Shown piece after piece: positions 20,830-36,491 of a DNA stretch of 64,000 nt. How positions within the stretch are numbered: position 1 is the stretch's first letter; every line of letters starts with the position of its first letter. Both the position numbers and the translations under genes were made by a program. The DNA lies in contig BROI01000003.1 of the NCBI GenBank assembly GCA_027923505.1, positions 186,001-250,000 on the forward strand, given 5' to 3'. The notes under the pieces are model-generated. The model saw only the letters and a list, made by a program, of their open reading frames with translations, was not told the DNA's origin and did not search any database. This stretch comes from Mayamaea pseudoterrestris. Its lineage: Eukaryota.

Positions 20830-21906
20830 TCATTCAATTGATGTATGAGTCCCAGAGTAATCCCATTCAATTAACGTATTTGTGGTTGCAGAAGCTTCCA
20901 GCAATTCAATGCAGTCGTTCAAGTTCTTCAGTTCCCGCGCCGTCGCACCATGTTCAAGCTCGCATCGTCTGGCTTCCTTCGCAAAGTCGAGGCTTTTTGA
21001 GTTCGTCAGTCGCATCGTCTTTTTCGAATTCTTGCTCAATTGAAAACGACCCGAGGACAAAATGTCTGGCGATGCTCCCTTGCTCAGCAAGTACTTGACA
21101 ATCGTCGGCATGCCTCGAGCTGATGCAACGGCAAGAGCCGTTTGATAGGCGGATGCAGCCTCGTAGGTTTGCAGGTCGACGATTGCCCCGTATTTTTCCA
21201 CAAGCTCTCGAACACACTTGAGAATAACTGCTTCGTTAACGTTTTTGGATCGACATACTTCGATCAAAAACAAGCCGCCAGTATATGTTCTCTGGTTGAT
21301 TCGCAAATGCGGTCCATACTCGTGCAAAAGGCCCACTAATTTTCGATGCGAAAGCCCCGACTTTTTGGTGCTGGCAGTGACAAGTTCACTCAGATAGTAA
21401 AACGCAATTTCGGTATTGTCCTTGACGAGTCGGTGCGCTTCCTTGACTTGCTCCAGCGGCGATCGTTCCAGGCGGGTGCAGCGGCGTCGCTTATGGTCGC
21501 TTCCGCCTGCTTGATTTCGGCGTGACGTTATGCTACTTGCACCATGACACTCTCTAGCAGCCCCATAGTCTTCCTGTAATATCGCTTCCCAAAGAATCGT
21601 ATTGTTTTGGAATTGATTGTAGCACAAGCGATTGAGTGGCGCGAGTTGATGGCAGACGACACTAGCTCGATTGGTCGGCGCCGCTACAAAGGAGACAATG
21701 CCAAAGAGTATCGTATCTGGAAGGTTCCACAAGCATGACAAGCTGCATTGTTCGAATGAGCTAGTGCATGAGTGTGACGAGTTTTCGGGTATACTCTTGT
21801 CACGGTCGTCGTTCGGCGTGGAATCTTGTTCGCGTAAAGAAGCGGCAACCGTGTGAATGTAATTGGACCATTCGGCAGCTGGATTCTTTCTTTTCAAACT
21901 CATCAT
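20830..21906 (-). CDS. Ankyrin-repeat protein with F-box-like N-terminal motif
   Basis: LWNLPDTILFGIVSFV (F-box-like); QTALAVASARGMPTIVKYLLSKGASPD (ankyrin). Confidence 0.7.
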   Translation of the reverse strand: MMSLKRKNPAAEWSNYIHTVAASLREQDSTPNDDRDKSIPENSSHSCTSSFEQCSLSCLWNLPDTILFGIVSFVAAPTNRASVVCHQLAPLNRLCYNQFQNNTILWEAILQEDYGAARECHGASSITSRRNQAGGSDHKRRRCTRLERSPLEQVKEAHRLVKDNTEIAFYYLSELVTASTKKSGLSHRKLVGLLHEYGPHLRINQRTYTGGLFLIEVCRSKNVNEAVILKCVRELVEKYGAIVDLQTYEAASAYQTALAVASARGMPTIVKYLLSKGASPDILSSGRFQLSKNSKKTMRLTNSKSLDFAKEARRCELEHGATARELKNLNDCIELLEASATTNTLIEWDYSGTHTSIE

Positions 21907-22233
21907 CTAACGCTTTAGTAACGAAAGTCGTAGTTTGATCAGAATCTTGTTCGTATGCGAGATTTGCCGAAGCGTATGTATGGACGTCAGCTGCAGTCGT
22001 TTGCCATGGTCGATTTCCCCGACAGACGCACGAACGTCGCTTCGGTACTGTTGCGACACTTAAATTCTCTCTCCTGTTTCACACGACTCCGATCGCAATC
22101 GTCGCCCGAAGACAATCGATGAACCTCTCGGGAACTGCAACCTTGGATACGCATCCGCTTTCCTCTCCATCTTGACACCCTCACAAATAACTTGCTTGCA
22201 AATCTATTCACCAAATCTTCACTGATATCAACC

Positions 22234-22758
22234 ATGACACGCAATCTCTTCATCGTTACCTTGATGCTTCTTGCATCCAACATGATCGCCGGCAACATTC
22301 TCGACTCGGCCAAGGAATACATCACTGGCGAATCACACGCAAAGAACCAAGCCAACCAAAACTACAACGCCGGCAAGAATGCGGCCCGTGAAAACTTGGA
22401 CGCCGCTGCCAACAAGGCCCAGGAAGGCTACGACGCCGCCGCCAACACGGCCCAGCAGGGCGCTAACACTGTCGGCGAAAAGGTGCAGCAAGGATACGAC
22501 GCGGCCAAGCACACTGCTCAGCAAGGATACGACGCCGTCAAGAACAAGGCCCAACAGGGATATGATGCCGCTCGTGGAACCGCCCAACAAACCGCGGACA
22601 TGGCTGGTGATGCCTTTGACAGCGCCAAGCGCACGGCGCAGGATGCCGCTGGACAGACCCGCCAAGGAATAAATGATGCCCAGAACAAGGGACATGAAGC
22701 CTTGGACAACGCCGCCGAGGGCGCCAAGCGCAAGACGGACCAGGCCAAGGAGTTGTAA
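22234..22758 (+). CDS. LEA (group 3-like) 11-mer repeat protein with signal peptide
   Basis: Hydrophobic N-terminus, then 11-aa repeats such as KAQQGYDAARG and TAQQGYDAVKN; A/Q/K/D-rich, no Cys or Trp. Confidence 0.8.
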   Translation: MTRNLFIVTLMLLASNMIAGNILDSAKEYITGESHAKNQANQNYNAGKNAARENLDAAANKAQEGYDAAANTAQQGANTVGEKVQQGYDAAKHTAQQGYDAVKNKAQQGYDAARGTAQQTADMAGDAFDSAKRTAQDAAGQTRQGINDAQNKGHEALDNAAEGAKRKTDQAKEL

Positions 22759-22843
22759 ATACTTAAATCCTGTAATAGCTAAAGGTTCTTGAGTAAACAC
22801 AAATTTTACTGTATCTACTGTGCATTTACTATTATATGTTACA

Positions 22844-22897
22844 GCATTCTAAACTGTATCGCATCGACGTGCATTTTAAACTGTATCGCGTCGACGT
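22844..22897. repeat. 27 bp tandem duplication (2 copies)
   Basis: gcattctaaactgtatcgcatcgacgt followed by gcattttaaactgtatcgcgtcgacgt. Confidence 0.85.
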
Positions 22898-23234
22898 GTA
22901 GTAGTATTGTAGCTAACAGAAATCCTGATGGCTACCTTGACTGCCAAGTGTCGCAAAATCCAGTCGTGCCAATGGAGTCGTGTTAACGTAAATTTATTAA
23001 AGCCTCGAAACTTGAATACTCGAGAGTCTAAAGTTTTGAGTTTTCAATACGCGTTTTCAGACTCGTGATTGGATTCGATTCGCTTTCTACTCGTGGAGCT
23101 TGTCGTGGAGCTTCTTCGTCGAGGATCGAAGAAAGATGATGGCACAACGATCGTCTTCTTCTAGTGCGCGTCTCCCCACAAATTTCAACGATCTTCGACA
23201 TAAATCAAGAATATCAAACAAACTCACGACCAAC

Positions 23235-25157
23235 ATGTACCGTCGCATTGCACTTCTCTGCTTCCTGCTTGCTGCGGCTCCGGCCAGCGGTGGCATCATC
23301 GACTACCTCAAGAGCGAGCCCGAAGAGACCGTGGTAGAAAAGGTGCAGCACGCATATGACGCGGCGAAAGACGCTGTCAAGGAGAGTGCCGTTCTGGGTG
23401 AGCACATGCATGACCCTTTGCCAGTGGAAGGCTCTGCCACCTACCATGCCAACGCCGCTGCGCAGAAGACCAAGGAAACTGCGGCAGACGCCCTTGATGC
23501 GGCGCAGCATGGCATCAAAGCAACAGCGGAAGGCGCAGCTAATGTCGCGCAGAATGCTGCCCATGCCGCACATCAGACGGGAAGAAACGTTTACAATACC
23601 GTCACTGGAACCACCCAACAAGCCTACGATACGGTGAAAGGCCTCGGCCAGGATGCCGCCGGTGCCGCTGCTGCCACAGGGCGCGGCGCTTACAATACGG
23701 TGACGGGTCTTGGTAAAGATGCAGCCGACACTGCTGCTGCGACAGGACGTGGCGCCTACGAGACTGCCAAGGACCTCGGTCAGGATGCCGCTGGTGCAGC
23801 CGCCGCAACAGGACGAGGCGCGTACGAGACTGCCAAAGATCTTGGTCAGGATGCCGCCGGTGCAGCAGCCGCAACTGGACGTGGCGCGTACGAGACTGCC
23901 AAAAACGTTGGGCAAGATGCGGCTGCAACAGGACAAGACGCTTATGAGACTGCCAAAAGTCTCGGTCAAGATGCGGCAGGCACGGCCAAGGACCTTGGTC
24001 AAGATGCGGCCGACACAGCCGCTGACACAGGACGTGGCGCCTTGCACGGAATCAAGGCGCAAGTAGGCGATATCTACGAAGGTGTCAAGTCGCATTTCCG
24101 ATCAGGCGCTGATGCTGCCGCTGAGACTGGAAGAGAGGCCTACGAAGGAACGAAAGCTACTGTCCAGTCGGGAGTTGATTCGGCTGCCAGGACTGGCAGG
24201 GATGCTTACGACTCTGCTAAGGAGCAGGGCAAGGAGGCACTCAATGCCGCAGAGCGAACTGCTCGCGACGCCAAGAACAAGGTTGAATCAGGGGCCGACG
24301 AGGCGAAACGGCAGGGCAAGGAAGCGCTTAATGCTGCTGAGCGTACTGGACGCGATGCCAAGAATAAGGTTGAGTCAGGTGCAAACGAGGCAAAGCAGCA
24401 GGGCAGAGAGGCACTCGGCGAAGCGAAGCATCAGGGCAGAGAGGCGCTTAACGAAGCTGAGCGCACTGGACGCGACGCCAAGTCGAAGGTCGAGTCTGGG
24501 GCCAATGAAGTAAAGCAACAGGGTAAGGATGCGCTCGGCGAGGCAGAACGCACTGGACGCGATGCCAAGTCAAAGGTCGAGTCAGGTGCCAACGACGTCA
24601 AGCAGCAAGGCAAGGAAGCTCTTGGCGAGGCTGAGCAAACTGGGCGCGATGTCAAGTCAAAGGTCGAGTCGGGTGCGAACGAAGCGAAGAACCAAGGCAA
24701 AGACTCACTCAATGAGGCGGAGCGAACTGGACGCGATACTAAGTCAAAGGTTGAGTCAGAAGCAAATGAAGCGAAGAATCAGGGCAAGAACTTGTACGAG
24801 CAAACCAAGCAGAACGGACAGCAAGCTGCCGACGAAGCCGCGTCTACAGGCCGAAATGTTTACGAGAACTCTAAGCAAAAGGTACAAGAAGGCGTCGACA
24901 GAGCAGGTGAAGCGTACGATTCGACCAAGGAAGATGCCAAAGGATTTGTCGGTGAAATCGCAGACAAAGGCCGCCACATCTACGAAGGCGCGAAGCGAGA
25001 ATTCGCTCATGCTACTGGGTCAGGCTCTCACAGACATGAAAAGACTGTCGGCATGAATGGGGAAGGAAATCTGCGCGACATGGAGGCAGACATTCACCAG
25101 ACAGCTGAGGGACTATCAAACCTGAAGGGAGATGTCGAAGCGGCGAAAGAATCTTAA
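23235..25157 (+). CDS. Large LEA-like helical repeat protein with signal peptide (~640 aa)
   Basis: MYRRIALLCFLLAAAPASG signal; 22-aa repeats AYETAKDLGQDAAGAAAATGRG; 29-aa repeats KEALNAAERTGRDAKNKVESGANEAKQQG. Confidence 0.8.
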   Translation: MYRRIALLCFLLAAAPASGGIIDYLKSEPEETVVEKVQHAYDAAKDAVKESAVLGEHMHDPLPVEGSATYHANAAAQKTKETAADALDAAQHGIKATAEGAANVAQNAAHAAHQTGRNVYNTVTGTTQQAYDTVKGLGQDAAGAAAATGRGAYNTVTGLGKDAADTAAATGRGAYETAKDLGQDAAGAAAATGRGAYETAKDLGQDAAGAAAATGRGAYETAKNVGQDAAATGQDAYETAKSLGQDAAGTAKDLGQDAADTAADTGRGALHGIKAQVGDIYEGVKSHFRSGADAAAETGREAYEGTKATVQSGVDSAARTGRDAYDSAKEQGKEALNAAERTARDAKNKVESGADEAKRQGKEALNAAERTGRDAKNKVESGANEAKQQGREALGEAKHQGREALNEAERTGRDAKSKVESGANEVKQQGKDALGEAERTGRDAKSKVESGANDVKQQGKEALGEAEQTGRDVKSKVESGANEAKNQGKDSLNEAERTGRDTKSKVESEANEAKNQGKNLYEQTKQNGQQAADEAASTGRNVYENSKQKVQEGVDRAGEAYDSTKEDAKGFVGEIADKGRHIYEGAKREFAHATGSGSHRHEKTVGMNGEGNLRDMEADIHQTAEGLSNLKGDVEAAKES

Positions 25158-25635
25158 TTGTTGACACGTTTGCCTTTAATGTATTGTAACCAATTTAAAT
25201 CAATGATCATCTTATATTATAAACTTGCTGGAATAGCAGTTTACAAACTAGTGTAAAGATGAAGGTTGAGTGATTCCGATACATGTCATTCTCAGGAGCT
25301 GCAAATTGCATGTCTCGTCAACATTTTGTTACATATAGGTGTAGGTTACAATTGCTTTAAATGCGGACGTATAACAAGCTTATTGTGCTGTTAACTTACC
25401 TTTTCTTCACTTCGGAAATTGCGGATTTACGTACGTTGAAAAATATTCAGGTACGCACCTGACAGCTAGATTCATTCAGTGCCTCTACGACGCGCCATGT
25501 ATTCGATCGAAATCTCGATGTCGAAATTCTTCGTCCGACTTTGGATGGAAAAGCCACGAGCAAAGCTTCTTGCGCACTTCCCACAACTTGCATACCGAGT
25601 TACAAACACTGTTCCCACAACCAAACATATTTAAA

Positions 25636-26175
25636 ATGAGTGACCTCCCAACCAGCAACATGCCAACGTCAACGGACGCCTTTTCGGGGCAGACGACGGA
25701 TGCACCAACAACAGGCGAGGCAGCCAGCGGAACTCCCATCATGGAGAAGGTTCATGTCGGTGTTGATGTTGCTTCAGACTTGTTCGTCGAAGCGAAAGCA
25801 AGACTTGAAGAAGCGGCCCGAGAATTTGATAGCGTGCTCAAGAGCAAGAACCCGGACAACAAGTTGGACGCGGGCTGGCAGGTGGCGGAGGATACATTCA
25901 ATGCCGCCCGGAACACATTCCAACAAGCGATTGACAGTTTCAAAAGCCAGTTCGAAAACAAGGGCGACGAGGATAAGTCATTGGTCGACAAGACTACTGC
26001 GGTCGCCGGTTCGGGTGTCGAACTTGTGAAAGCAAAGTTATACGAAGCCAAGACTGAATTTGAGAAGGCGTCGGCCGATCTTCGCGATCGCATCAAGGCA
26101 AAGGAGCAAGAGAATCAGTTGAAAAAGGCCGGAGAGGAATTTAATCGCGAAGCGAAAGGTGTTCCGGAACTCTGA
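25636..26175 (+). CDS. Amphipathic helical LEA/apolipoprotein-like protein
   Basis: Charged A/E/K-rich helices with internal similarity (AKARLEEAAREF and VKAKLYEAKTEF). Confidence 0.6.
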   Translation: MSDLPTSNMPTSTDAFSGQTTDAPTTGEAASGTPIMEKVHVGVDVASDLFVEAKARLEEAAREFDSVLKSKNPDNKLDAGWQVAEDTFNAARNTFQQAIDSFKSQFENKGDEDKSLVDKTTAVAGSGVELVKAKLYEAKTEFEKASADLRDRIKAKEQENQLKKAGEEFNREAKGVPEL

Positions 26176-26733
26176 GTTAGTGCTGTGCGGTAGATTCAAT
26201 GTGATCGGTCATGTGCGCCTTGGTGACGATTAGCTTTACAGGAAATGCGATAAATATTTAGTGAGCTTGTGTTTACTTGAAATTTCCTTTGACATTATTT
26301 GCGTACTATTTTGTATCAATCCTCGGAAAACCACTTCATCATTTGAGATGAAAGAATGCGATCGGCATTGGCATTTGAAATACTGGATTGTGTGATGCCA
26401 TGAAGGAAACGTCAAAGCGCCCGCATCGTTGTGCATGGTCGTTGTGAATCTCATCCTGAAACTACAACACATCCAGTCCCGACGGTCCCATTTGCGTCGG
26501 AGGAGAAGGGAAATCGGCGTCATGGTGGAGCAACGGTCCGAGCACGACGTCCAGAATTGACAGTGAAGACTGTGGGTACCGATACGATTCTGGGTCACAC
26601 ATCGATGAAATATATGACGTCACAAGACATCTTGGGTCTTGCATCACAGATGCGATGACTGTCTGATCTTCGATCATGTTGCAAGTCCTAACTTGGTTGT
26701 TACTTACATATTGACAAGACCAAACGCTTGACC

Positions 26734-29259
26734 ATGACCGACTTTTTCTCCAGAGAAGCCGAAAAGCAGCTGCAGGCGCTCATGGAGGCCAACAAGGCTG
26801 CCGCGCCACCAGCCTCGACGGCGTTTGACAACGTGAAGCTCTACTCTGAAAATGAGCGGACGGCTGTTGCAGCCGCGGCGTCGGTTGACGGCGACGCGTC
26901 TGACAGCGATTACACCTGGGTGACATGTGATGGAGACAGCGATGGTGACGAAAGCTCGGAGGAGAGTGACGCGGAAAGTTCGTCCGGTGAAGAAAGTTCT
27001 TCGAGCGAGGAGGAAGAATCCAGTGAAGAAGAATCATCGAGCGAAGAGGACGACGATGAAGAGGTCGAAGCAGTCTTTGTCGTAGAGGAAGTTATCATTG
27101 ACCACGACGCTGCAGAGAAAACCATAGAGGCTGCCGAACCAGTCGCTCAGAAGGAAGAGCCAGACTTGGATGGCACCGACCGAAGTTTACAAGTCGAAGA
27201 AGCGACTACCATCGATGAGGCATCGCGTCTTGTCGTCCTTTGCTCTTTACAGACGAGCGACAGGGAGGTCACTTCGCGCCAGCATCGAGTGCATTCATTG
27301 CTGGCTGCGCAGAAAGTCCCGTACCAGGCAATTGACGGAAGTGACCCTGACAACAAAGACAAACGAAACGAACTTTTCAAACTCTCGGGACGACAGGGTC
27401 ACTATCCGCAATTTTTTCGACGAAACGATGATGGCTCGCTGAAGTACATTGGCGACTACGAGAAGATGGAACAGACTAACGAGCTTGGCGTATTAAAGAG
27501 TTCCATTTCTTCACTGGATCAACCCGACGTTACGGAGAGTGAGGCGGAAGACGGACCTAAGCCAGTTGACGCTACAGCGATTGCCAAGGCGAAGGAAGAG
27601 GCGGCCGCCGATGCAAAAGCAAAAGCAGAAACAGCCGCCGCCGCCGAAGCAAAGGCCAAGAAGGAAGCGGCAGAAGCCGCGGCGAAGGAGAAGGCTCTTG
27701 CGAAAGCACGGGCAAAGCAGGAAGCCGACGAAAAAGTTGCTCGCGTCAAGCGACAAGCAGAGGAGTTTGCGAAGCGACAGGAGGATGAACGACTGGCGGC
27801 GGAGAAGCTTGCCGAGCAAAAGCGACTGGCGGAGGAGAAGCTAGAAAAAGAGCGACTAAAAGCTGAAGAGTTGGCAAAGCAAGAAGCCAAAGAATTGGCT
27901 GAGCGAGAGAGGATCGAAGTGGAAAGGCTCAAGAAAGAGGCTGAGGACGATGCGATGAGAGCCAGACTAGAAGCTATAGAAGCTGCCAAGCTCGAAAAAG
28001 AGGAGAAGATTGCCAGGGTTAAGCGTGAAGCTGAACAATTAGCAGAGAAACATGCATCTGACCAACTCGCGCTCGAGCGACTGGAGCAATCACGACGCGA
28101 AGCGGACGAACGCAAGCGTGAGCAAAAGGAGCAAGACGAGCGACTTGCTCAAACTGCTCGCGAAAAGGACGACCAAAGCAAGAGAGAAGCTGATGAGCGG
28201 GACCGTATCCTTAGGGAGGAACAAGCGAGCACCGCTCGTCTAGCTCAAGAAAAAGAAGAACGAGAAAGGAAGAATGCGGAAAACCAAGCTCGAATGGATC
28301 AGCTTGAGAAAGAAAGCGCTGCTCGACTAGCTCGTGAAAAGGAAGAGCAAAATAGAAAGGAGTCGGAGGAGCGAGAGCGAAAGTCCCAAGCAGAGAAGCT
28401 TGAAAAAGAAAGCATTGCTCGACTAGCTCGTGAAAAGGAAGAGCAAAATAGAAAGGAGTCGGAGGAGCGAGAGCGAAAGTCCCAAGCGAAGAAGCTTGAA
28501 AAAGAAAGCGCTGCTCGACTAGCTCGTGAAAAGGAAGAGAAAATTCGAAAAGCAGCCGAGGATGAAGCACGAAGATCCCAGGCGGTTGACGAGCGTCGAG
28601 CCAGAGATGATGCTGCGACCAAAGCCAGCGCGCGTTTAGAGCGAGAAAAGGCTGCTGCCGAGGAGCGGGAGCGAGAATTAAAAGCAGAACGTGAGCGATT
28701 TAGAGCAGAGAATGACGCTAAATTTGCACTTGAACAAGTTGAACGCCTTCGTAAGCAAAAGGAAGAGAGTGCAGCGACCTTCTCCGCCAAAAATAACGTT
28801 GCTGTGGAAAAAGAACCTGCACCGGCGCCGGCAGCAGCAGATCCCGCTCCAGCAAAGAAAAAGAAGGTTAAAAGCGGCGAGGAAAAGAAGGTCAAGAAGA
28901 AGAGTGAAAAGAAGAAAGACGAGATTGCTGAGCCAAAGACAAAGGGTGTTGAGCGCCAATCGTCTGGGAAAATGTTTCTACGACTGCCAAAGGCCAAGGA
29001 AGAATCTCTTGCGGTGGCGCCAATCGAGCCTGCAAAACCCATGACGGAAGAAGAACGCAAGCAAACGACGCTGCGCAAGCTCCAGTTATGCTACGAATGG
29101 TATGGCAAGCTTGGTCAGCCGAGCCGGGAAAAGATGAAGGAGAAGGTGTCGCGCATTCATTCGTCCATTGGTATCACTGCCGACGATGTAGATGCCATGC
29201 CATGGACGAAAACTGGCAGGTTGAATATTATGGAAATGAACAAGATTTTTCTGCAGTAA
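26734..29259 (+). CDS. SH3BGR-like thioredoxin-fold domain plus long charged coiled-coil protein
   Basis: RQHRVHSLLAAQKVPYQAIDGSDPDNKDKRNELF...YPQFF...YIGDYE (SH3BGR-like); acidic tract; E/R/K-rich helix; small globular C-terminal domain. Confidence 0.75.
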   Translation: MTDFFSREAEKQLQALMEANKAAAPPASTAFDNVKLYSENERTAVAAAASVDGDASDSDYTWVTCDGDSDGDESSEESDAESSSGEESSSSEEEESSEEESSSEEDDDEEVEAVFVVEEVIIDHDAAEKTIEAAEPVAQKEEPDLDGTDRSLQVEEATTIDEASRLVVLCSLQTSDREVTSRQHRVHSLLAAQKVPYQAIDGSDPDNKDKRNELFKLSGRQGHYPQFFRRNDDGSLKYIGDYEKMEQTNELGVLKSSISSLDQPDVTESEAEDGPKPVDATAIAKAKEEAAADAKAKAETAAAAEAKAKKEAAEAAAKEKALAKARAKQEADEKVARVKRQAEEFAKRQEDERLAAEKLAEQKRLAEEKLEKERLKAEELAKQEAKELAERERIEVERLKKEAEDDAMRARLEAIEAAKLEKEEKIARVKREAEQLAEKHASDQLALERLEQSRREADERKREQKEQDERLAQTAREKDDQSKREADERDRILREEQASTARLAQEKEERERKNAENQARMDQLEKESAARLAREKEEQNRKESEERERKSQAEKLEKESIARLAREKEEQNRKESEERERKSQAKKLEKESAARLAREKEEKIRKAAEDEARRSQAVDERRARDDAATKASARLEREKAAAEERERELKAERERFRAENDAKFALEQVERLRKQKEESAATFSAKNNVAVEKEPAPAPAAADPAPAKKKKVKSGEEKKVKKKSEKKKDEIAEPKTKGVERQSSGKMFLRLPKAKEESLAVAPIEPAKPMTEEERKQTTLRKLQLCYEWYGKLGQPSREKMKEKVSRIHSSIGITADDVDAMPWTKTGRLNIMEMNKIFLQ
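28303..28540 (+). repeat. 96 bp (32 aa) coding tandem repeat, about 2.5 copies
   Basis: LEKESAARLAREKEEQNRKESEERERKSQAEK units start at 28303, 28399 and 28495 with near-identical DNA. Confidence 0.9.
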
Positions 29260-29750
29260 GATTGCGTTCAGCATGGTTGTGCAATGATTAAGTGTAAATA
29301 GCGGCATCAGTCGGTCGATCTCATTTACAAGGCACTGCGCACTATTTGCGTCCATTATTTGCTGCTTATGATATCCAATTGCCTCTCTTTATTACATAAA
29401 TAACGAGACGTATATGTTTACACTGCTATCTTAGATGACTCCTCTTGCCTTGAGCAGGTGACAACATAATGGACCTCAGTCGTGCCTCTTTATTACAAAG
29501 TTGCATTGATGCAGTATGCTCGTCAAACCAAAATGTAGCTCCTGTGTCAGGATATTTAGACTGTTTTGTTTCTCATCAAAGCATACACCTCAAAGTATAG
29601 ACATCAAGCAGTTGCAGACAATTACTTTCGTTTTGACGAAGCATGGATAGCTAGGATCTACAGCAACGGAGCACACACGCCTTTTGACTTCACCCTGTTG
29701 CGGTGCGACTTTGCGAAATCGAATTCGCTCTGCCGTCGCACAATTCCACC

Positions 29751-31814
29751 ATGATGATCTCGTCGCTGCGGAACGCGCAATGCAAGTGTTCAATTTTCAG
29801 TAGTCTTACCAGATGCAGAAGATTATCTAGCCAAGCATCTTTTCGAACGATTGATAGTCGTACAGCTTTAACAGCGACAGCTTTTGCTTCACTCGCAATT
29901 GGCTTTGCTATCGGCCGTTCATCTAATGCAGTTGAAAGCAACAGCACTACCAAGATCCTCCCTGATGGCTTACCTCGAACATGCTGTGAACATGAAGAGA
30001 AACCTTCTAGTTTTACTGCCGCCCAGCTTGCACTGCCTGAGAAACTTGCTTTGATTGCTGGAGCCGACAATGTGATTGATGGTCGCACCTTTTCGACTCG
30101 AACGCTTCCCTTCCTACGCGGCGCCCGTCTGGGACTCGGCAGCGCCCTCTGCATTGTCACCCCGCGCAACTTGGCTGAAGTCCCAGAACTGGTGCAAGCC
30201 ATTGTTGATGCAAACTGCGTCATTGTGACGCAGGGTCAAAACACGGGCCTCACTGGAGGGAGTGTGCCGCGTGAACATGATTTGACGAGTGCAGCGTCGT
30301 CGCACCGACCGACTGTAGTTTTAAGCATGAAACACTTGGACCGCATCTTTCCAATTGACAATGGTGACCGCGTCGTTTGCTTGGCCGGCGCAGGCCTTGC
30401 CAGTTTGCAGCAGTTTCTCGATACTTACTTTCCCGACCGAGAATCGCACAGCATTTTAGGATCTACATTTTTGAATCCAACCACGGCGGCAGGGGTTGCA
30501 TTGGGCTCGGGTGGCACGCAAATGCGCAAGGGACCTGCTTATACAGAGCGAGCCTTGTATCTGAAAGTGACGACGAATAAGTGGCAGGAAAATGTTGTGG
30601 AAGTAGTCAATACGTTGGGCATCAAGGGCCTACAAGATCGTGAACTGCCGGCAGATCGCGCGCGACGAATGGATGGTGTACCTTATCGGCTTGATGTATG
30701 GTCGCAGTGGATGACGAAAGGTTTTGACCGGTCCATGAAGTATTCCTTAGCAGAGGATCCTGACCTAAAAGCAGCGAGCGATGTCGACTACAAGGAACGT
30801 TTATGTCGTCATGACTCACACATAAACCGATACAATGCGGATACGCGAGGACCGGAACTGAATCGATCGGAAGGAAAGGTTATTATATTGGCAACAGTGC
30901 ATGACACCTTCTTGAAACCAAAGGAGACAAAAATGTTTTGGTTAGGATTTGATACTCTCGAAACGGCCTTGGCCTTTCGTCGCGAGGTCGCGCTGGTCAA
31001 TTCGAGCGATTTGCCTGTCAGCATGGAGTACCTTGATCGAGATGCGTTTGACGTTATTGATCAAGCTGGACGGATCATGGGTACATTCATTAAATACTTG
31101 GGAACGGCTTCGCCCATACTTCGACACCTGTGGAATGGCAAGCTTTGGGTTGAGGCACTTCCCTTTGCTGGGGCGACAGAGATTGTGGACAAGCTACTTT
31201 ACACTTCCAACTCCATCATGCCTCCTTTACTATCAAACGAGATAATGGAGACTGGAAGAGCACTGGATCATCATATATCTTTAAAGGTTGACGAGTACGG
31301 CGACGGTAATTTGGAGCGACTACTTGATCGCATGAAGAACTTCGCGTCGAAGCATGGTCGCGACAAGATTGTCATTCACGAATGTTCGAATGCCATTGAT
31401 GCTATGAATGCCTTCCGTTTTGTTGCAGCTCCAGCCTTCCGAACATGGTGCGTCGGCAACGGTAGCCAAGGAATCAGCGTTGACTATGCGCTTCCGAACA
31501 ATGGGGGAGAAGCTCCTTTACTCGATGGTCACGACGCAAAACCATTGAAACGTATGCGATATTCACACTTTGGATGTAACGTCGTTCACGAAGACTTGGC
31601 GTATGGAGCAGGTGTCGACGTACACGCAGCAAAGCACCATCTAAAGCGAATAGTTGAATTTGAATGCAAAGGTCGTTTGCCTGCTGAACATGGTCACGGA
31701 ACGGAGTACATTGCTCCCCCAGAGACGCAAGAGAGATGGCGGAAAATGGATCCTCTTAATGTATTAAATCCAGGAGTCGGAGGGCTGCCGGATAGTCGTC
31801 AATACAAGGCGTAG
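29751..31814 (+). CDS. dld: FAD-dependent, quinone-linked D-lactate dehydrogenase (bacterial Dld type) with organellar presequence
   Basis: QGQNTGLTGGSVP, RESHSILGS, GVALGSGG, KGPAYTE, YSHFGCNVVHED, PAEHGHG, DPLNVLNPGVG parallel E. coli Dld motifs. Confidence 0.85.
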   Translation: MMISSLRNAQCKCSIFSSLTRCRRLSSQASFRTIDSRTALTATAFASLAIGFAIGRSSNAVESNSTTKILPDGLPRTCCEHEEKPSSFTAAQLALPEKLALIAGADNVIDGRTFSTRTLPFLRGARLGLGSALCIVTPRNLAEVPELVQAIVDANCVIVTQGQNTGLTGGSVPREHDLTSAASSHRPTVVLSMKHLDRIFPIDNGDRVVCLAGAGLASLQQFLDTYFPDRESHSILGSTFLNPTTAAGVALGSGGTQMRKGPAYTERALYLKVTTNKWQENVVEVVNTLGIKGLQDRELPADRARRMDGVPYRLDVWSQWMTKGFDRSMKYSLAEDPDLKAASDVDYKERLCRHDSHINRYNADTRGPELNRSEGKVIILATVHDTFLKPKETKMFWLGFDTLETALAFRREVALVNSSDLPVSMEYLDRDAFDVIDQAGRIMGTFIKYLGTASPILRHLWNGKLWVEALPFAGATEIVDKLLYTSNSIMPPLLSNEIMETGRALDHHISLKVDEYGDGNLERLLDRMKNFASKHGRDKIVIHECSNAIDAMNAFRFVAAPAFRTWCVGNGSQGISVDYALPNNGGEAPLLDGHDAKPLKRMRYSHFGCNVVHEDLAYGAGVDVHAAKHHLKRIVEFECKGRLPAEHGHGTEYIAPPETQERWRKMDPLNVLNPGVGGLPDSRQYKA

Positions 31815-32100
31815 AAGCTTTTTTGTGCGTGCAAGCAAGGTTGCCAACCAGGCCGAGTAGTCTGTATCTATCCAGTAGAGCGTTATATGTTGAGCTTGTT
31901 GCTTGCGCATGATACTGAGGCGGGCCAGTAGACCACGATTGCTGCAAAATTACATCACAACACAACCCCTCGCCACGGTCGCGACAGATAAGATATGTAC
32001 ACTACGAAACAAATAAATGAAAAGTTGGCAGTTGCTATAAGTCATTACTGTCTACTCTATATCTCGCCAACCTCTGATCTGCCACACAGCCCTCGACAAC

Positions 32101-32370
32101 CTAGTAGGTCTGATGCTGGCGGCTCTCGTCAACTCGCTCCTTCGCCGAGCCGAGACCCTCGGACGTCTTGTCCTTTGCCGATTCGTAGGTATCACCCGCC
32201 TGCTCCGAAGTAGAGTGCATGCCTTCATCGGTCTTCTGCTTGGTCTTGTCGAAGCCGTGCTTCAAAGATTCGGTCGCCTCCTGCGTCTTGCCCGCAATGT
32301 ATTCTTTCGTGTCCTGAAACTTTTCCTTGATGTTCTCGGTCACGCTCTTATCCTGGCCAGAGGAAGACAT
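32101..32370 (-). CDS. Small LEA/hydrophilin-like protein (89 aa), paralog A
   Basis: DKSVTENIKEKFQDTKEYIAGKT; highly hydrophilic; N-terminal motif shared with the next two genes. Confidence 0.75.
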   Translation of the reverse strand: MSSSGQDKSVTENIKEKFQDTKEYIAGKTQEATESLKHGFDKTKQKTDEGMHSTSEQAGDTYESAKDKTSEGLGSAKERVDESRQHQTY

Positions 32371-32743
32371 GGTTGCTATTATCGTTTCAGTATTTGGGGT
32401 TGCGTGATAAGCACTGCTCCACAATTTATGAACGCTTCACGCAAGAGCCATACCATTCGCTTCGCAAGAGTGTCGACGCCCTTCACACTAATTCCATCGA
32501 AGATCTTTAGATCGGAACCATTTGTGATTTCCTTGCCGAAAAGGAGAAGTGATGGAGGCCGCTGAAGCTGAGATGCGCGTCATCTTTCCATGGCAGGCAC
32601 CTGGCAAAATCTGCAAGCACATCCATGCTAAATAATGAGATGGCACAGTCTATTCCGATACATGTACAAGTACGCTACAACACATATTTGTAAAGGATAA
32701 AAGAATCGTTCTAGAGGTCGTTACGTTCTATGATCAAAGAACT

Positions 32744-32965
32744 TTACTTCTTCATCGCCGTCTCGTACGTAGCATTTTGCTGCGGTGAAGAGTGCGCGCC
32801 CTTTTCGCCCTTGTGCACGGTCTTCTTCACACCTTCAGCGGCGTCGTGTGTCTTGCTTGCGATAAAGTCTTTGGTGTCCTCAAACTTCTCCTTGATGTTT
32901 TCGGTCATGCTCTTGTCCTTGTGGTTGTTGTGGTGGATGTCGTTGTGGTGGCCTGGGGTAGTCAT
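32744..32965 (-). CDS. Small LEA/hydrophilin-like protein (73 aa), paralog B, His-rich N-terminus
   Basis: DKSMTENIKEKFEDTKDFIASKT, paralogous to the neighbours. Confidence 0.75.
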   Translation of the reverse strand: MTTPGHHNDIHHNNHKDKSMTENIKEKFEDTKDFIASKTHDAAEGVKKTVHKGEKGAHSSPQQNATYETAMKK

Positions 32966-33655
32966 GATTGCTTATGTTTGAATGTTCAGTTGAGTATCGA
33001 GATTTCGATTTGTGAGATCATCTTTGATGAGGCTCGTTGGTGTCATATCGAAAGGGCGTTAGTAGGAAGAGTCGAATCCCTTCGGCGTCTATCTTTGGAA
33101 GATCTTCGGGTGGTCCAGTCCCGGAGAAGCCGTCGCCAAAAATGAGAATTCGATCGTCATTCTATCGAACACTTCTTGCTAGCGGCGCGTGACATCATGT
33201 GTGTCTTAATTTGTGCAGCCTAGCTATGGTAAACGAACCAAGCTTGTCGGCCTGTTTAACGGGATGATTGGGGCTAACTTATGATGTTGCTTTAAAAGAT
33301 TGTGAGGACATCGTCTGATGTTATAAGTACCTCTAACCAAGGATCTTTCCGTCAGGAATAATACTATGCTGAACGACAGCAATATAAATCAACTTGCAAA
33401 TGCACACCTTATATGCTGAACAAGGGAGTGGCAAAGTCGATGATGCTGAAGGTTGGATGTTTATGTTTGACTAGCCATATACACGGCAATCGCTGTCGTC
33501 CGGTTTGGGTTGAATTTGTTGTGAGATCCCGTATGTTTGCGCTATCTTTTATACACTACTACAAGAAAGTCGTTTCAATAATATGCAAGGAATTTAATAA
33601 CTTGCTTAGGTCCTCAACAAGGGAGACACCAGCTTACAATGGAGAAGCAAGGTTT

Positions 33656-34240
33656 TTACTTCGACTGCTTGACCTTGTCCTGGGCAGTGCCCAAGTTTGA
33701 GGCGATGGCATCCTTCGTCTTGGCCGCTGTGTGCTCAGGGTTGCTCTGGCCGACTTTGCTTTGGGCAGTGCCCAATGCATCAGCCGTCTTGTCCTTGGCC
33801 GCGTCCACAGTCTCGCCAGTCTTCTGCTTGGTCGCGTCCCAGGTTTCGGCTGTCTTGTCGCCGGCCATGCCAAGAGTCTGCTTTGCGCCCTCGACCATCT
33901 CGCCGGTCTTCTGCTTGGTCGCGTCCCAGGTGTCAGCCGTGGTTTGCTTGGTGGCATCCCAGGTGTCGGCGGTGGTCTGCTTGGCGCCCTCGACGATCTC
34001 GCCGGTCTTCTGCTTGGTGGCATCCCACGTGTTGGCGGTGGTCTGCTTGGTGGCATCCCATGTCTCGCCAGTCTTTTGCTGGGCGGTGCCTAGGCTGTCC
34101 TTGGCACCTTCGTTGGCACCCTGCGTCTTTCCTGCAAGGTAGTCGACGGTGCTGTCGAACTTCTCCTTCACGTTCTCGGTGAAGGTCTTGGTGGGGGCGT
34201 TGTCGGAATGATCCGGAGCGACGTTGTTTGGGTTGACCAT
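33656..34240 (-). CDS. LEA group 3-like protein with 11-mer repeats, paralog C
   Basis: KTFTENVKEKFDSTVDYLAGKT followed by QTTADTWDATK and QKTGEMVEGAK 11-mers. Confidence 0.85.
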   Translation of the reverse strand: MVNPNNVAPDHSDNAPTKTFTENVKEKFDSTVDYLAGKTQGANEGAKDSLGTAQQKTGETWDATKQTTANTWDATKQKTGEIVEGAKQTTADTWDATKQTTADTWDATKQKTGEMVEGAKQTLGMAGDKTAETWDATKQKTGETVDAAKDKTADALGTAQSKVGQSNPEHTAAKTKDAIASNLGTAQDKVKQSK

Positions 34241-34665
34241 TTTGTTTGTTGTTTGAGTTTTGTCGGGTTGATAGTTGCTGCTGAAGCTTTTTGTGAGAGG
34301 ATCTGATCATGATCGCATCCTCGATCCAAAAAGCACGGAGGTTCGCAAGAGACTCGATGCGTTTCGAAGAGCACCTTCGTGCATTGCAGCCCTGTGACGC
34401 GCTTCCGGGAAAGCACGACTGCCATTCTTTAGAAATCGATAGAGGACGATTCGATTCACGATAGCTACCGGTAGGTAACTGCTACCAAACTACGTCTATC
34501 ATTAACAATAGGCTTTGAAGGGGTAGCTTTTAATGTCAAGCTTACTAGCAAACTTGTAACGACGTCTATCTTACTACACCAGACTCTACAATATTGTAGC
34601 TACGAGCGCAAACGTATTCATATAAATAGGTGCAGTGACGCAAAACTGTAATTGCTAACACATTA

Positions 34666-36300
34666 CTACAGCATTAGCAGCTGCGGCTGGTTCATATACT
34701 GTCGAAACGCCGACAGAAACAATGCTGCAGTTGGCTCATCAACCGCCCTGCGGTCGGCAGACAATCTAGCCGTCATGATGGTTTGAATTACCGGCGATTT
34801 CTGATCAACCGCGCCATCCACGTAAGGCGTTGGAACCACTCGTCGAGAACCTCCTCCTACCGCAAGAATGGCAGCTTGCGGAGGGTTAATCACTGCTGAA
34901 AATTCGTCAATTCCAAACATGCCTAGGTTGCTAATGCTAAAGGTTCCGCCCTGATACTCGGCCGGAGCCAGCTTGCCCTCGCGAGCGCGGCCGGCCAAAT
35001 CCTTCACCTTGTTGGTAATCTCCGCTAGCCCCAGCTGGTCCGTACCAAAGACAATCGGTGTGATCAAGCCAGTTGGCGTTGCAACCGCGACGCTGATATC
35101 AACCGTTTCTGATACATGAATGGCGCCGTCAGAGTTTTGAATCGTTGCATTTATTTGCGGTACGTCACGTAGCGCCATGGCGCAGCACTTGATGACAAAG
35201 TCGTTGACGCTAATCTTGACATCAAACTCACTGACCAGTTGCTTGCGAAGCTTCATGATGTGATCCAGCTGGACGGGCATGGCCGTGTAAAAGTGCGGAA
35301 CGTTGCGCTTGCTGTCGGTCAATCGACTAGCAATGATCTTGCGCATCTTGTTGTTAGCGACATCTTCGTAAGAGCCTGTTGTATGGATTGTCTCAGCGAC
35401 CAAGTCTTGAAGTGTCAATGGAGCAGGGGCGCTTGCAGTCGCTGCAGCTGCTGGTGGAGCTGCATTAGTTGTTGCAGGCGTTGGTGCGGCTGCTTGATCG
35501 TTCGTGCTGACTGATGCTTTGACAACTTCTTCCTTCCTCAAGGATGGCATACTTCCATCGACAAGTGCCTGCATGACATCTCCCTTGGTAACCCGTCCTC
35601 CCTTTCCACTTCCAGACAGAACCGTCGCATCCAGGCCCTTGGATTCGGCCAAGTGTCGAGCCGACGGCAGTAAGATGGAACCGCCCCCGCTCTTGTGCGT
35701 CGCAGGGGATGCAGCAGATGCCGCCGAGTCTTCCTTGATGTCTTCTTTAGATTCTGCTGCAGCAGCAGCGGTATCCTTACTTGCAGCAGGACCATCAGCA
35801 ACATAGTTTGCAAACGCGGCAACATCACCTTCCTCCTCGACAACCACGCAAATAGGCGTTCCCACCGCTACACTCTCATCCGATCCAGCCTGCACCAAGA
35901 TTTTGGCCAAGATGCCATCATCCTGTGCCTCAAAGTCGACGCTTGCCTTGTCGGTATCAATGCTGCAAAGTGCCGTGCCGGCACCAAAGGAGTCGCCCTC
36001 CTTGACGAGCCACTGGGAAATGCTTCCGGAATCCATGGTCGGACTGAGGGCTGGCATGGGAAATAGTATATGCGGAGGATAATCATCTTGAGCAAACTGA
36101 ATGGAACTGCGTGAATAAAGTCGTTTCGTAGATGCTGTCCATGATGAAGGACAACCAGAGAAGGCAGCAGATGGTGCGAAGGTTCGGTTGGAGTTCAAGC
36201 TAAAGGGCGCTGCTTTGATTGCAAAGCTTGCGCCTGGAGCAGCTGACCTTGCCAGAATGCGTCGGGACATGGTTCTTCGAAGGACGATAGCAGAAGACAT
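34666..36300 (-). CDS. DLAT: Pyruvate dehydrogenase E2, dihydrolipoamide acetyltransferase (mitochondrial)
   Basis: Presequence; lipoyl domain MPALSPTM...DTDKA; E3-binding GSGKGGRVTKGDV; catalytic GGTFSISNLGMFG, INPPQAAILAVG. Confidence 0.93.
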   Translation of the reverse strand: MSSAIVLRRTMSRRILARSAAPGASFAIKAAPFSLNSNRTFAPSAAFSGCPSSWTASTKRLYSRSSIQFAQDDYPPHILFPMPALSPTMDSGSISQWLVKEGDSFGAGTALCSIDTDKASVDFEAQDDGILAKILVQAGSDESVAVGTPICVVVEEEGDVAAFANYVADGPAASKDTAAAAAESKEDIKEDSAASAASPATHKSGGGSILLPSARHLAESKGLDATVLSGSGKGGRVTKGDVMQALVDGSMPSLRKEEVVKASVSTNDQAAAPTPATTNAAPPAAAATASAPAPLTLQDLVAETIHTTGSYEDVANNKMRKIIASRLTDSKRNVPHFYTAMPVQLDHIMKLRKQLVSEFDVKISVNDFVIKCCAMALRDVPQINATIQNSDGAIHVSETVDISVAVATPTGLITPIVFGTDQLGLAEITNKVKDLAGRAREGKLAPAEYQGGTFSISNLGMFGIDEFSAVINPPQAAILAVGGGSRRVVPTPYVDGAVDQKSPVIQTIMTARLSADRRAVDEPTAALFLSAFRQYMNQPQLLML

Positions 36301-36491
36301 GGTTGTTGCAGGTAAGTATCATCAGTAGTCGAAGCGACTTCTGCTGCTAGCGTCGATGCGCGACGAGCGATGATTAAGTACCGCTGCGATGCAATGTGTC
36401 GCGCTGCGACGTCGACGGCTACACCATCACGATCTGGATGCGACGACCATGAAAATCACCTCCTCTGGCAGATGAAGTTCTCGACATCATT

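What the first reader, a model, noticed from the sequence alone, without database searches (positions are those of the whole stretch)
22234..34240. Island of six LEA/hydrophilin-like genes: candidate desiccation or osmotic tolerance locus in a diatom
Seen: three + strand genes (22234, 23235, 25636) and three - strand genes (32370, 32965, 34240) encode hydrophilic A/K/E/Q/T-rich helical proteins, several with 11-mer or 22-mer periodicity. The two blocks converge on an SH3BGR-domain gene and a D-lactate dehydrogenase. Established: 11-mer amphipathic repeats define group 3 LEA proteins of desiccation-tolerant plants and invertebrates. Inference: a physically clustered, co-regulated stress-protection locus, possibly from a soil or aerophytic diatom. 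I do not know of such a cluster described in diatoms, but could not search.
Basis: partly seen in the sequence, partly recalled or inferred. Interest (0 to 1): 0.85.

Follow-up and report, generated by a model that had tools for sequence, protein, structure and literature searches.

The report
Cluster of LEA-like repeat protein genes
A 12-kb stretch of a compact eukaryotic (probably diatom) genome holds two small families of very water-loving proteins built from 11-residue repeats, like the proteins that protect seeds and dried insects, but whether they protect this organism from drying or salt is untested.

Summary
All six ORFs exist at the stated coordinates. They are not one kind of gene. 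g1 and g2 (+ strand) are paralogs with signal-peptide-like N-termini. g4, g5 and g6 (- strand) are paralogs that share a conserved 25-residue head. g3 is unrelated to the rest. 11-residue periodicity is strong in g1, g2 and g6 (z 14-18 against shuffles), weak in g4 and absent in g3 and g5. In g1, g2, g6 and g4 the hydrophobicity is in phase at about 98 degrees, as expected for an 11/3 amphipathic helix.

No Pfam LEA family reaches its cut-off. A named insect LEA (PvLEA3) fails the LEA_4 model too, and the repeat proteins align to it well beyond composition. The family B head gives repeated sub-threshold matches to yeast Hsp12.

Both families are nearly orphan: g4 had 6 hits among 1.84 billion representatives.

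No evidence of stress induction or co-regulation was obtained, and no shared upstream motif was found. Tandem duplication explains the clustering within each family.

Verdict: these are real, lineage-restricted LEA-like hydrophilins. The "desiccation island" reading stays plausible but unshown. Interest is moderate.

The parts
22234..22758 (+). g1: family A, 174 aa. Hydrophobic N-terminal signal-peptide-like segment, then about ten 11-mers with a Y-D-A-A-K core.
   Evidence: ORF. 11-mer identity z 14.6. Hydrophobic moment peaks at 98.5-99 degrees, z 8.1. The best 12-residue stretch near the N-terminus, from residue 5, has mean Kyte-Doolittle 2.12; the mature part has GRAVY -1.17 and Gly 9.1%. 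Paralog of g2 (z 11.8). 3 of 5 listed allelic differences are synonymous.
23235..25157 (+). g2: family A, 640 aa. Signal-peptide-like N-terminus, then 22-mer and 29-mer (11+18) repeat arrays.
   Evidence: ORF. TRF periods of 66 and 87 nt. 11-mer identity z 18.4. Moment peaks at 98.5 degrees. 10 of 11 listed allelic differences are synonymous. A 2-nt allelic insertion at 23196 in runs X1 and X5 argues against the upstream ATG at 23136. Contigs of X4 and X5 cover it collinearly (records 14 and 22). The nearest Atlas clusters are plant LEA (ECP63-like, D-29), scores 0.84-0.87, a lead only.
25636..26175 (+). g3: singleton, 179 aa. S/T/P-rich N-terminus plus three predicted long helices. Not repeat-built and not LEA-like.
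   Evidence: No periodicity (z 1.0) and no 98-degree moment (z 1.1). No relation to the other five. The exact protein is in NCBI nr. Three relatives at 45-63% identity share invariant motifs. AF2 model pLDDT 56.8. 2 of 2 listed differences are synonymous.
26734..29259 (+). Intervening gene: SH3BGR-domain protein with a long E/K/A/R-rich helical tail. Not part of either family.
   Evidence: Pfam SH3BGR 28.2 bits against cut-off 21. Used as a hydrophilic control: no 98-degree moment (z -1.2) and no similarity to PvLEA3 (z -1.0).
29751..31814 (+). Intervening gene: FAD-dependent D-lactate dehydrogenase with a membrane-binding domain.
   Evidence: Pfam Lact-deh-memb 182 bits, FAD_binding_4 31.4 bits.
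32101..32370 (-). g4: family B, 89 aa. Conserved head, then a few weak 11-mers.
   Evidence: ORF. GRAVY -1.52, Gly 7.9%. 11-mer identity z 5.5. Moment z 3.3. Paralog of g5 and g6. HSP9_HSP12 at 16.8 bits, below the 26.3 cut-off. A relative, P0012, is 58% identical.
32744..32965 (-). g5: family B, 73 aa. His-rich N-terminus plus the conserved head; no repeats.
   Evidence: ORF. 52% identical to g4 over 63 aa. No periodicity (z 0.0). HSP9_HSP12 at 16.4 bits, below cut-off.
33656..34240 (-). g6: family B, 194 aa. Conserved head plus about twelve 11-mers with a W-D-A-T-K core.
   Evidence: ORF. TRF periods of 33, 66 and 99 nt. 11-mer identity z 14.2. Moment peaks at 97.5-98 degrees, z 4.5. LEA_4 at 14.4 bits against cut-off 51.1, Apolipoprotein at 28.5 against 90. 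AF2 model all-helical, pLDDT 56.5. Contigs of X4 and X5 cover it (records 20 and 27).

Best explanation
The locus holds two lineage-restricted families of LEA-like hydrophilins that grew by local duplication. Family A (g1, g2) carries an N-terminal hydrophobic segment and so probably enters the secretory pathway. Family B (g4, g5, g6) has no such segment and is probably cytosolic. g3 is an unrelated small helical protein that merely lies between them. Shown: the repeat proteins are built from 11-residue units (g2 also from 22- and 29-residue units) whose apolar residues stay in phase at about 98 degrees per residue. As helices they would therefore carry one continuous apolar stripe, as group 3 LEA proteins, apolipoproteins, synucleins and perilipin-4 do. 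Inferred: they are largely disordered in dilute solution. When water is lost, solutes concentrate or they meet a membrane, they fold into amphipathic helices that coat membranes and shield proteins, which would limit damage from drying, freezing or salt shock. Having one family in the secretory pathway and one in the cytosol would protect both sides of the endomembranes. The clustering is mostly a product of tandem duplication. Joint regulation is a hypothesis only.
For: Two families and a singleton: BLASTP gives g1-g2 1e-9 and g4/g5/g6 2e-10 to 8e-16, with g3 related to none; shuffle z is 11.8-18.7 within families. 11-mer periodicity z: 14.6, 18.4 and 14.2 for g1, g2 and g6, and 5.5 for g4. 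Whole-chain hydrophobic moment peaks at 97.5-99 degrees, with z 8.1 (g1), 5.0 (g2), 4.5 (g6) and 3.3 (g4); the hydrophilic control, the SH3BGR tail, gives -1.2. Order-dependent similarity to PvLEA3 of the anhydrobiotic midge: g4 finds it at E 4.7e-5 as one of only 6 hits among 1.84 billion representatives. Shuffle z against PvLEA3 is 15.3 (g1), 13.7 (g2), 10.1 (g6) and 8.0 (g4), against -1.0 for the control. The sub-threshold Pfam matches are all to amphipathic-repeat or stress families: Apolipoprotein, YtxH, Synuclein, ApoLp-III, DUF883, HSP9_HSP12 and LEA_4. PvLEA3 gives the same kind of list and itself lacks LEA_4 at E 0.1 or better. The nearest Atlas clusters to g2 are plant LEA, scores 0.84-0.87, a lead only. 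The family B head matches HSP9_HSP12 at the same profile region in g4, g5, g6 and relative P0012 (12.9-24.1 bits, cut-off 26.3). The A3 profile's best PDB match is yeast Hsp12, E 0.049. Hsp12 is a hydrophilin needed, together with trehalose, for yeast desiccation tolerance, and it remodels membranes (PMC6054528, abstract). Real coding genes: 15 of 18 listed allelic differences in g1-g3 are synonymous, and g3 is in NCBI nr. N-terminal hydrophobic segments occur only in g1 and g2. Precedent for LEA gene islands: the ARIds of Polypedilum vanderplanki (PMC7363813, passages).
Against: No Pfam or NCBIfam family passes its cut-off for any of the six, so homology to LEA_4 or HSP12 is unproven. Periodic repeats inflate similarity scores, so the z values do not show common descent. 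g6 has 5 Trp, and the units of g1, g2 and g4 carry Tyr, which the classical group 3 consensus as I recall it does not. g3 and g5 lack repeats. No expression data under any stress were available, and no listed run is on record as RNA. No shared upstream 7-10-mer was found beyond one 8-mer in 4 of 6 upstream regions. The AF2 models are low-confidence (pLDDT 56-57) and cannot show disorder-to-helix behaviour. The signal peptides were judged from hydropathy alone. The same architecture serves lipid-droplet and lipoprotein coats that have nothing to do with water stress.
Confidence: 0.5

Rival explanations
1. These are constitutive membrane or lipid-droplet coat proteins. Their 11-mer amphipathic helices bind phospholipid monolayers or bilayers (oil bodies, ER, vesicles), as perilipin-4, apolipoproteins and synuclein do, and have no special role in water stress.
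For: The best sub-threshold Pfam matches include Apolipoprotein (g6 28.5 bits, g4 19.8), Synuclein (g1) and ApoLp-III (g2). Perilipin-4 clusters appear among the Atlas neighbours of g2 (0.76-0.77). The amphipathic phase sits at about 98 degrees. In a thraustochytrid, a LEA_4 protein was also read as apolipoprotein-like (PMC12221091, passages).
Against: The apolar stripe is mostly Ala, Thr and Gly with a single aromatic residue per unit, and the proteins are very hydrophilic (GRAVY -0.96 to -1.52), closer to LEA than to typical lipid-coat helices. LEA clusters rank above perilipin in the Atlas list. All these matches are below threshold.
Confidence: 0.2
2. The two blocks are functionally unrelated neighbours. 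g1 and g2 are secreted matrix, adhesive or wall-associated repeat proteins. g4-g6 are small cytosolic proteins of another function. The 'island' is a coincidence of two tandem arrays.
For: Only g1 and g2 have N-terminal hydrophobic segments. The blocks are separated by two unrelated genes covering about 6 kb. No shared upstream motif was found. Similarity between the families (z 4.6-6.9) is lower than the similarity of either to an insect protein. A secreted His/Ser/Lys-rich ORF lies nearby at 19964-20668.
Against: Both families use the same post-hoc core, [YWF][DE]x x[KAR], in an 11-residue register: 19 hits in g1, g2, g4 and g6 against 1 in 11,682 residues of 28 other ORFs. The head of g1 resembles the family B head (z 4.0, reached by 4 of 2000 shuffles). 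Two such rare families lying 6 kb apart by chance seems unlikely, but that could not be computed without the genome.
Confidence: 0.2
3. Some of the ORFs, above all the short g4 and g5, are not real genes but chance open frames in repetitive or biased DNA.
For: Repeats leave several frames open. The exact ORF products of g1, g2, g4, g5 and g6 are not in the 15-billion-protein collection. No allelic differences inside g4-g6 were among the 40 of 637 shown.
Against: The synonymous excess in g1-g3 is 15 of 18. The g4/g5/g6 head is conserved at 40-52% identity. Independent relatives P0012 and P0014 from other sources carry the same head. Exact look-up also missed the plainly real D-LDH and SH3BGR ORFs, so absence there means little.
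Confidence: 0.05

Closest known systems
Group 3 LEA proteins (Pfam LEA_4, PF02987), including the PvLEA proteins of Polypedilum vanderplanki
   Same: Tandem 11-residue units, high hydrophilicity and an amphipathic 11/3 phase. Order-dependent similarity to PvLEA3. Members appear routed to more than one compartment; PvLEA3 itself is reported in the ER or Golgi (PMC7363813, passages).
   Different: No member reaches the LEA_4 cut-off; the best is g6 at 14.4 bits against 51.1. The units carry an aromatic residue (Y or W) followed by an acidic one. There are almost no sequence relatives anywhere. No stress data exist.
Fungal HSP9/HSP12 hydrophilins (PF04119; yeast Hsp12, PDB 2l9q, 2ljl, 4axp)
   Same: Small size, about 70-190 aa against 109, and extreme hydrophilicity. 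The family B head aligns to the same part of the HSP9_HSP12 profile in 4 of the 5 members scanned. Hsp12 is the best PDB match of the family profile.
   Different: All scores are below the cut-off of 26.3 bits (12.9-24.1), and the PDB match has E 0.049. g6 adds a long 11-mer array that Hsp12 lacks. The organism is not a fungus.
Anhydrobiosis-related gene islands (ARIds) of Polypedilum vanderplanki
   Same: Compact genomic clusters of tandemly duplicated LEA genes interspersed with other genes (PMC7363813, passages).
   Different: The scale is 5 genes in 12 kb, against 20 PvLea plus 13 PvLil genes in about 100 kb. Induction on drying and absence from non-tolerant relatives, which define ARIds, could not be tested here.
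Exchangeable apolipoproteins, perilipin-4 and alpha-synuclein (11-mer amphipathic lipid binders)
   Same: 11-mer register and sub-threshold profile matches.
   Different: Far below the family cut-offs (Apolipoprotein 28.5 bits against 90). The apolar face is much more polar.

Membership tests
Group 3 LEA (Pfam LEA_4, PF02987) | Score at or above the Pfam gathering threshold (51.1 bits) | tested here: not met
   g6 scores 14.4 bits. g1, g2, g3 and g4 give no LEA_4 match at E 1 or better, and g5 gives none at E 0.1 or better. Control: the named LEA PvLEA3 also shows no LEA_4 match at E 0.1 or better, so this test is strict.
Group 3 LEA (Pfam LEA_4, PF02987) | Tandem 11-residue repeats | tested here: met
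   Met for g1, g2 and g6 (z 14-18) and weakly for g4 (z 5.5). Not met for g3 or g5. DNA periods of 33, 66 and 99 nt.
Group 3 LEA (Pfam LEA_4, PF02987) | Repeats would form an amphipathic helix with 11 residues per 3 turns | tested here: met
   The coherent hydrophobic moment peaks at 97.5-99 degrees, with z 8.1 (g1), 5.0 (g2), 4.5 (g6) and 3.3 (g4). This is a calculation, not a structure. The AF2 model of g6 is all-helical but has pLDDT 56.5.
Group 3 LEA (Pfam LEA_4, PF02987) | Accumulation under water deficit; heat solubility; disorder in solution with folding on drying | not testable with these tools
   No run on record as RNA.
Hydrophilins (criteria as I recall them: Gly above 6% and mean hydrophilicity above 1) | Gly above 6% and GRAVY below -1 | tested here: inconclusive
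   Met by mature g1 (-1.17, 9.1%), g4 (-1.52, 7.9%) and g6 (-1.06, 7.7%). Mature g2 is borderline (-0.96, 12.1%). g5 fails on Gly (5.5%). g3 fails both (-0.72, 5.6%).
HSP9/HSP12 (PF04119) | Score at or above the gathering threshold (26.3 bits) | tested here: not met
   g4 16.8, g5 16.4, g6 12.9 and relative P0012 24.1 bits, all at profile positions of about 18-48; relative P0014 gives no match. The family profile's best PDB match is Hsp12 at E 0.049. This is a consistent lead, not membership.
Apolipoprotein A1/A4/E (PF01442) | Score at or above the gathering threshold (90 bits) | tested here: not met
   g6 28.5, g4 19.8 and g1 11 bits.
ARId-type anhydrobiosis gene island | Tandemly expanded protectant paralogs in a compact cluster | tested here: met
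   2 + 3 paralogs within 12 kb, on a small scale.
ARId-type anhydrobiosis gene island | Genes induced on desiccation and absent from non-tolerant relatives | not testable with these tools
   No expression data and no diatom genomes are held.

The most novel reading that the evidence does not exclude
This diatom has evolved its own set of LEA-like protectants: one family for the secretory pathway and one for the cytosol, the latter with an Hsp12-like head. They sit together as a miniature 'anhydrobiosis-related island', convergent with the LEA islands of the sleeping chironomid, and they underlie tolerance of drying, freezing or salinity shock in a benthic or terrestrial lifestyle.
Probability: 0.2. 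Interest if true: 0.75.

Novelty: new variant of a known kind. Interest (0 to 1): 0.45.

Why it matters
Four full-text searches found no paper describing LEA-type protectants in diatoms, although many diatoms survive emersion, ice and brine. If these genes are stress-induced protectants, they would give a molecular handle on that tolerance. They would also be a second case, after the sleeping chironomid, of clustered LEA-like genes. And they would show that 11-mer amphipathic protectants arise repeatedly outside the curated LEA families, where profile searches miss them. If they turn out to be lipid or matrix proteins instead, the locus is an ordinary pair of tandem arrays.

Tried and rejected
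- Whole genome: none is held, so the genome-wide frequency of such genes and the chance of two families being neighbours could not be computed.
- RNA evidence: no RNA holder is listed. Runs X4 and X5 have no recorded kind. Their contigs cover genes patchily and those over g2 and g6 have high word depth. The tool says contig depth cannot rank genes, so I drew no expression conclusion. Parts without cover are not used.
- The 29-letter loose end of an X4 contig before 23217 is not found in the window and has no AG acceptor before it. It remains unexplained.
- Shared promoter words: one 8-mer occurs in 4 of 6 upstream regions. No 7-mer occurs in 5 or more, and no 9- or 10-mer in 3 or more. This neither supports nor excludes co-regulation.
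- Metagenome loci: family B gave 592 pattern matches, none confirmed. g3 gave three weak matches (29-38% identity), which I did not pursue. So there is no synteny information.
- The g1 word search returned three proteins that share only the Q-Q-G-Y-D-A repeat, which I judged uninformative.
- Atlas search for g3: best score 0.83, nothing usable.
- PDB sequence search with g2: only ATP synthase subunit b at E 0.013.
- NCBIfam: nothing near any cut-off.
- AF2 models of g3 and g6 were too low in confidence for fold search, so none was run.
- Common ancestry of families A and B: considered and left open. Their similarity (z 4.6-6.9) is weaker than that of each to an insect LEA.
- A C-terminal ER-retention reading of the g1 ending was considered and dropped, because it does not fit the pattern as I recall it.
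- Earlier scan notes: nothing on this genome or these sequences.
Full report
**What is there.**
- g1 22234-22758 + (174 aa)
- g2 23235-25157 + (640 aa)
- g3 25636-26175 + (179 aa)
- g4 32101-32370 - (89 aa)
- g5 32744-32965 - (73 aa)
- g6 33656-34240 - (194 aa)

Between the two blocks lie an SH3BGR-domain protein with a long E/K/A/R-rich tail (26734-29259 +) and a D-lactate dehydrogenase of the membrane-binding type (29751-31814 +). The locus is flanked by an ankyrin-repeat gene (20830-21906 -) and a 2-oxoacid dehydrogenase E2 (34666-36300 -). The rest of the window encodes ordinary eukaryotic proteins in long uninterrupted ORFs. That fits a compact genome such as a diatom's, but I could not verify the organism, and no whole genome is held.

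**Are they real genes?**
- Run contigs laid on the region show many allelic or strain differences. Only 40 of 637 were printed, and 18 of those fall in g1-g3. Of these, 15 are synonymous in the proposed frames: g1 3 of 5, g2 10 of 11, g3 2 of 2. No printed difference falls in g4-g6.
- A 2-nt insertion at 23196 in two runs breaks the frame from the upstream ATG at 23136, so g2 most likely starts at 23235.
- The exact g3 and E2 proteins are in NCBI nr. The other ORF products, including the plainly real D-LDH and SH3BGR, are not found by exact look-up, so that absence says little.
- g4, g5 and g6 are supported by their mutual conservation and by two independent relatives that carry the same head (P0012, P0014).
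- No joint inside any of the six ORFs was listed. The four listed joints lie between genes, and all four are seen in X1 and three also in X2, the two runs with even cover; I read them as allelic indels.

**One kind of gene or several?** All-against-all BLASTP separates them as follows:
- Family A is g1 plus g2 (E 1e-9).
- Family B is g4, g5 and g6 (E 2e-10 to 8e-16).
- g3 is related to none of the others.

Shuffle tests agree, with z 11.8-18.7 within families. Only g1 and g2 begin with a hydrophobic stretch: the best 12-residue stretch near the N-terminus, from residue 5, has mean Kyte-Doolittle 2.1-2.6. That stretch is followed by small residues, which looks like a signal peptide. g3-g6 have nothing of the kind. 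By the rule I recall for diatom plastid import, an aromatic residue must follow the cleavage site. Neither protein has one, so I read them as secretory-pathway proteins. That is inference.

**Periodicity and amphipathicity.**

| Gene | Mean self-identity at offsets 11/22/33 | z against 1000 shuffles |
|---|---|---|
| g1 | 0.281 | 14.6 |
| g2 | 0.214 | 18.4 |
| g6 | 0.259 | 14.2 |
| g4 | 0.179 | 5.5 |
| g3 | 0.083 | 1.0 |
| g5 | 0.073 | 0.0 |

TRF finds DNA periods of 33, 66, 87 and 99 nt. The 29-residue unit of g2 is 11+18. That equals eight helical turns and keeps the same phase.

The whole-chain hydrophobic moment peaks at 97.5-99 degrees; 11 residues per 3 turns would give 98.2 degrees. The z values are 8.1 (g1), 5.0 (g2), 4.5 (g6), 3.3 (g4), 2.6 (g5) and 1.1 (g3). 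The equally hydrophilic SH3BGR tail gives -1.2.

In the window no other ORF of 60 aa or more has this combination, apart from ORFs in other frames or on the opposite strand over the same repeats. tblastn finds no further copies.

The observation therefore holds for g1, g2 and g6, and weakly for g4. g5 belongs only as a short paralog. g3 does not belong.

**Family membership.**
- No Pfam family passes its cut-off. LEA_4 appears only for g6, at 14.4 bits against 51.1. NCBIfam gives nothing.
- The weak matches are all to amphipathic-repeat or small stress-protein families: Apolipoprotein, YtxH, Synuclein, ApoLp-III, DUF883 and HSP9_HSP12.
- As a control I scanned PvLEA3, a named LEA of the anhydrobiotic midge that the g4 search had returned. 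It shows no LEA_4 match at E 0.1 or better and gives the same kind of list: Apolipoprotein 54.6 bits, YtxH 52.1, ApoLp-III, DUF883 and CsbD. Failing LEA_4 therefore lowers the claim 'is a LEA_4 member' but not the claim 'works like a group 3 LEA'.
- The hydrophilin criteria, as I recall them, are met by mature g1, g4 and g6. Mature g2 is borderline, and g3 and g5 fail.

**Relatives elsewhere.** Both families are nearly orphan.
- The g6 word search found 5 proteins at E 0.001 or better among 1613 candidates.
- The g1 word search found 3 among 1962, and these share only the repeat.
- A full phmmer of g4 against 1.84 billion representatives found 6. Two are true family B members from short JGI contigs (P0012, P0014). 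One is an ERp29-like protein with a long 11-mer insert (P0011). One is a whitefly protein with W-D-A-T-K repeats (P0015). One is PvLEA3 (P0016, E 4.7e-5). One, P0013, is a 1028-aa repeat protein of unknown kind.
- g3 has three relatives at 45-63% identity with invariant motifs, so it is a conserved small protein of its own kind. Its AF2 model has three long helices at pLDDT 56.8.

**Similarity to known protectants.** Local alignment scores against PvLEA3 exceed shuffles by z 15.3 (g1), 13.7 (g2), 10.1 (g6) and 8.0 (g4). The SH3BGR tail gives -1.0. BLASTP of g2 against PvLEA3 gives E 2e-9 for the single comparison. These values are higher than those between families A and B (z 4.6-6.9). The A-B resemblance therefore needs no recent common origin.

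Both families do use the same unit core: an aromatic residue, an acidic residue, two small residues, then Lys. It occurs 19 times in g1, g2, g4 and g6, against once in 11,682 residues of 28 other ORFs in the window. The motif was defined after looking at the sequences, so this count is descriptive.

The Atlas neighbours of g2 are plant LEA clusters (ECP63-like 0.87, D-29 0.86, a LEA_4 cluster 0.85), then perilipin-4 (0.77). All are below the 0.9 level and are leads only.

The family B head matches the same part of the HSP9_HSP12 profile in g4, g5, g6 and P0012 (12.9-24.1 bits, cut-off 26.3). The family profile's best match in the PDB is yeast Hsp12, at E 0.049. Hsp12 is a hydrophilin that acts with trehalose to sustain yeast viability after desiccation, and it remodels vesicles (PMC6054528, abstract).

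**How it most likely works.**
- Shown: the architecture and the amphipathic phase.
- Inferred: these proteins are disordered when hydrated and fold into long amphipathic helices on water loss or membrane contact, which shields membranes and proteins. One family would act inside the secretory pathway or outside the cell, and the other in the cytosol.

The AF2 model of g6 is all-helical but of low confidence (pLDDT 56.5). That is what such proteins usually give, and it proves nothing.

The main rival is a constitutive lipid or membrane coat, which uses the same architecture. A second rival is that the two blocks are unrelated neighbours, with g1 and g2 as extracellular matrix proteins.

**The 'island'.** Within each family, clustering is ordinary tandem duplication. 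What remains is that two rare repeat families lie 6 kb apart on converging strands, with g3 and two unrelated genes between them.
- I found no shared upstream word beyond one 8-mer in 4 of 6 upstream regions.
- I had no admissible expression data.
- I had no other diatom genomes for synteny.

Co-regulation and any link to a soil or aerophytic habitat therefore stay open. A precedent for LEA islands exists in the ARIds of Polypedilum vanderplanki, where 26 of 27 LEA genes lie in two islands and most are induced on drying (PMC7363813, passages).

**Literature.** Four full-text searches combined diatom with late embryogenesis abundant, LEA, desiccation or hydrophilin. No listed title or abstract start described LEA-type genes or such a cluster in diatoms.
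- I read passages of PMC4009763, where LEA is discussed for polar Chlorella, not diatoms.
- I read passages of PMC11299111, which says nothing on diatom LEA.
- I read passages of PMC12221091, which describes a LEA_4 protein in a thraustochytrid, also read there as apolipoprotein-like.

Subscription journals and supplements were not seen.

**Verdict.** These are new, lineage-restricted variants of the LEA/hydrophilin kind, arranged as two tandem families. Their protective role is plausible by analogy but untested.

Noticed in passing
window 19964-20668 (-), probably starting at the internal Met before the hydrophobic stretch: An ORF with a signal-peptide-like segment, followed by a long His/Ser/Lys/Gly-rich low-complexity tail of S-K-G-S-K-H-H type repeats. 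It has no Pfam family. It could be a secreted metal-binding or silica-associated protein, and it lies just upstream of the cluster.
   Followed up: no
P0011 (671 aa, from a Logan assembly): An ERp29-like protein (ERp29_N 44 bits; ERp29 C-terminal domain 23.2 bits, just under its 24.3 cut-off) with a signal-peptide-like start and a C-terminal E-E-L ending. About 400 residues of Y-D-x-x-K 11-mers are inserted between the two domains. It looks like an ER-lumen chaperone fused to a LEA-like array.
   Followed up: partly
window 20500-37000, runs X1 and X2: Contigs fall into classes of 99+%, 95-99% and 90-95% identity, with replaced or deleted intergenic segments at 22871-22935, 26240-26355, 32522-32668 and 36307-36455. 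This points to strongly diverged haplotypes or strains.
   Followed up: no
window 28301-28544 within the SH3BGR gene: A 96-nt (32-aa) tandem repeat, 2.6 copies at 94% match, inside a long E/K/R/A-rich tail. It has the composition of a charged single alpha-helix and no 11/3 phase.
   Followed up: partly
window 7876-9117 (+) and 29751-31814 (+): The window holds two D-2-hydroxyacid-type dehydrogenases: one NAD-dependent (2-Hacid_dh_C, 182.7 bits) and the FAD-dependent D-LDH.
   Followed up: no
window 56086-57396 (+): A protein with DUF6824 plus an HA (helicase-associated) domain.
   Followed up: no
window 23217, run X4 record 14: A contig over g2 carries 29 unmatched letters before 23217. They occur nowhere in the window, and no splice acceptor lies at the boundary. 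Unexplained; possibly allelic 5' UTR divergence.
   Followed up: partly
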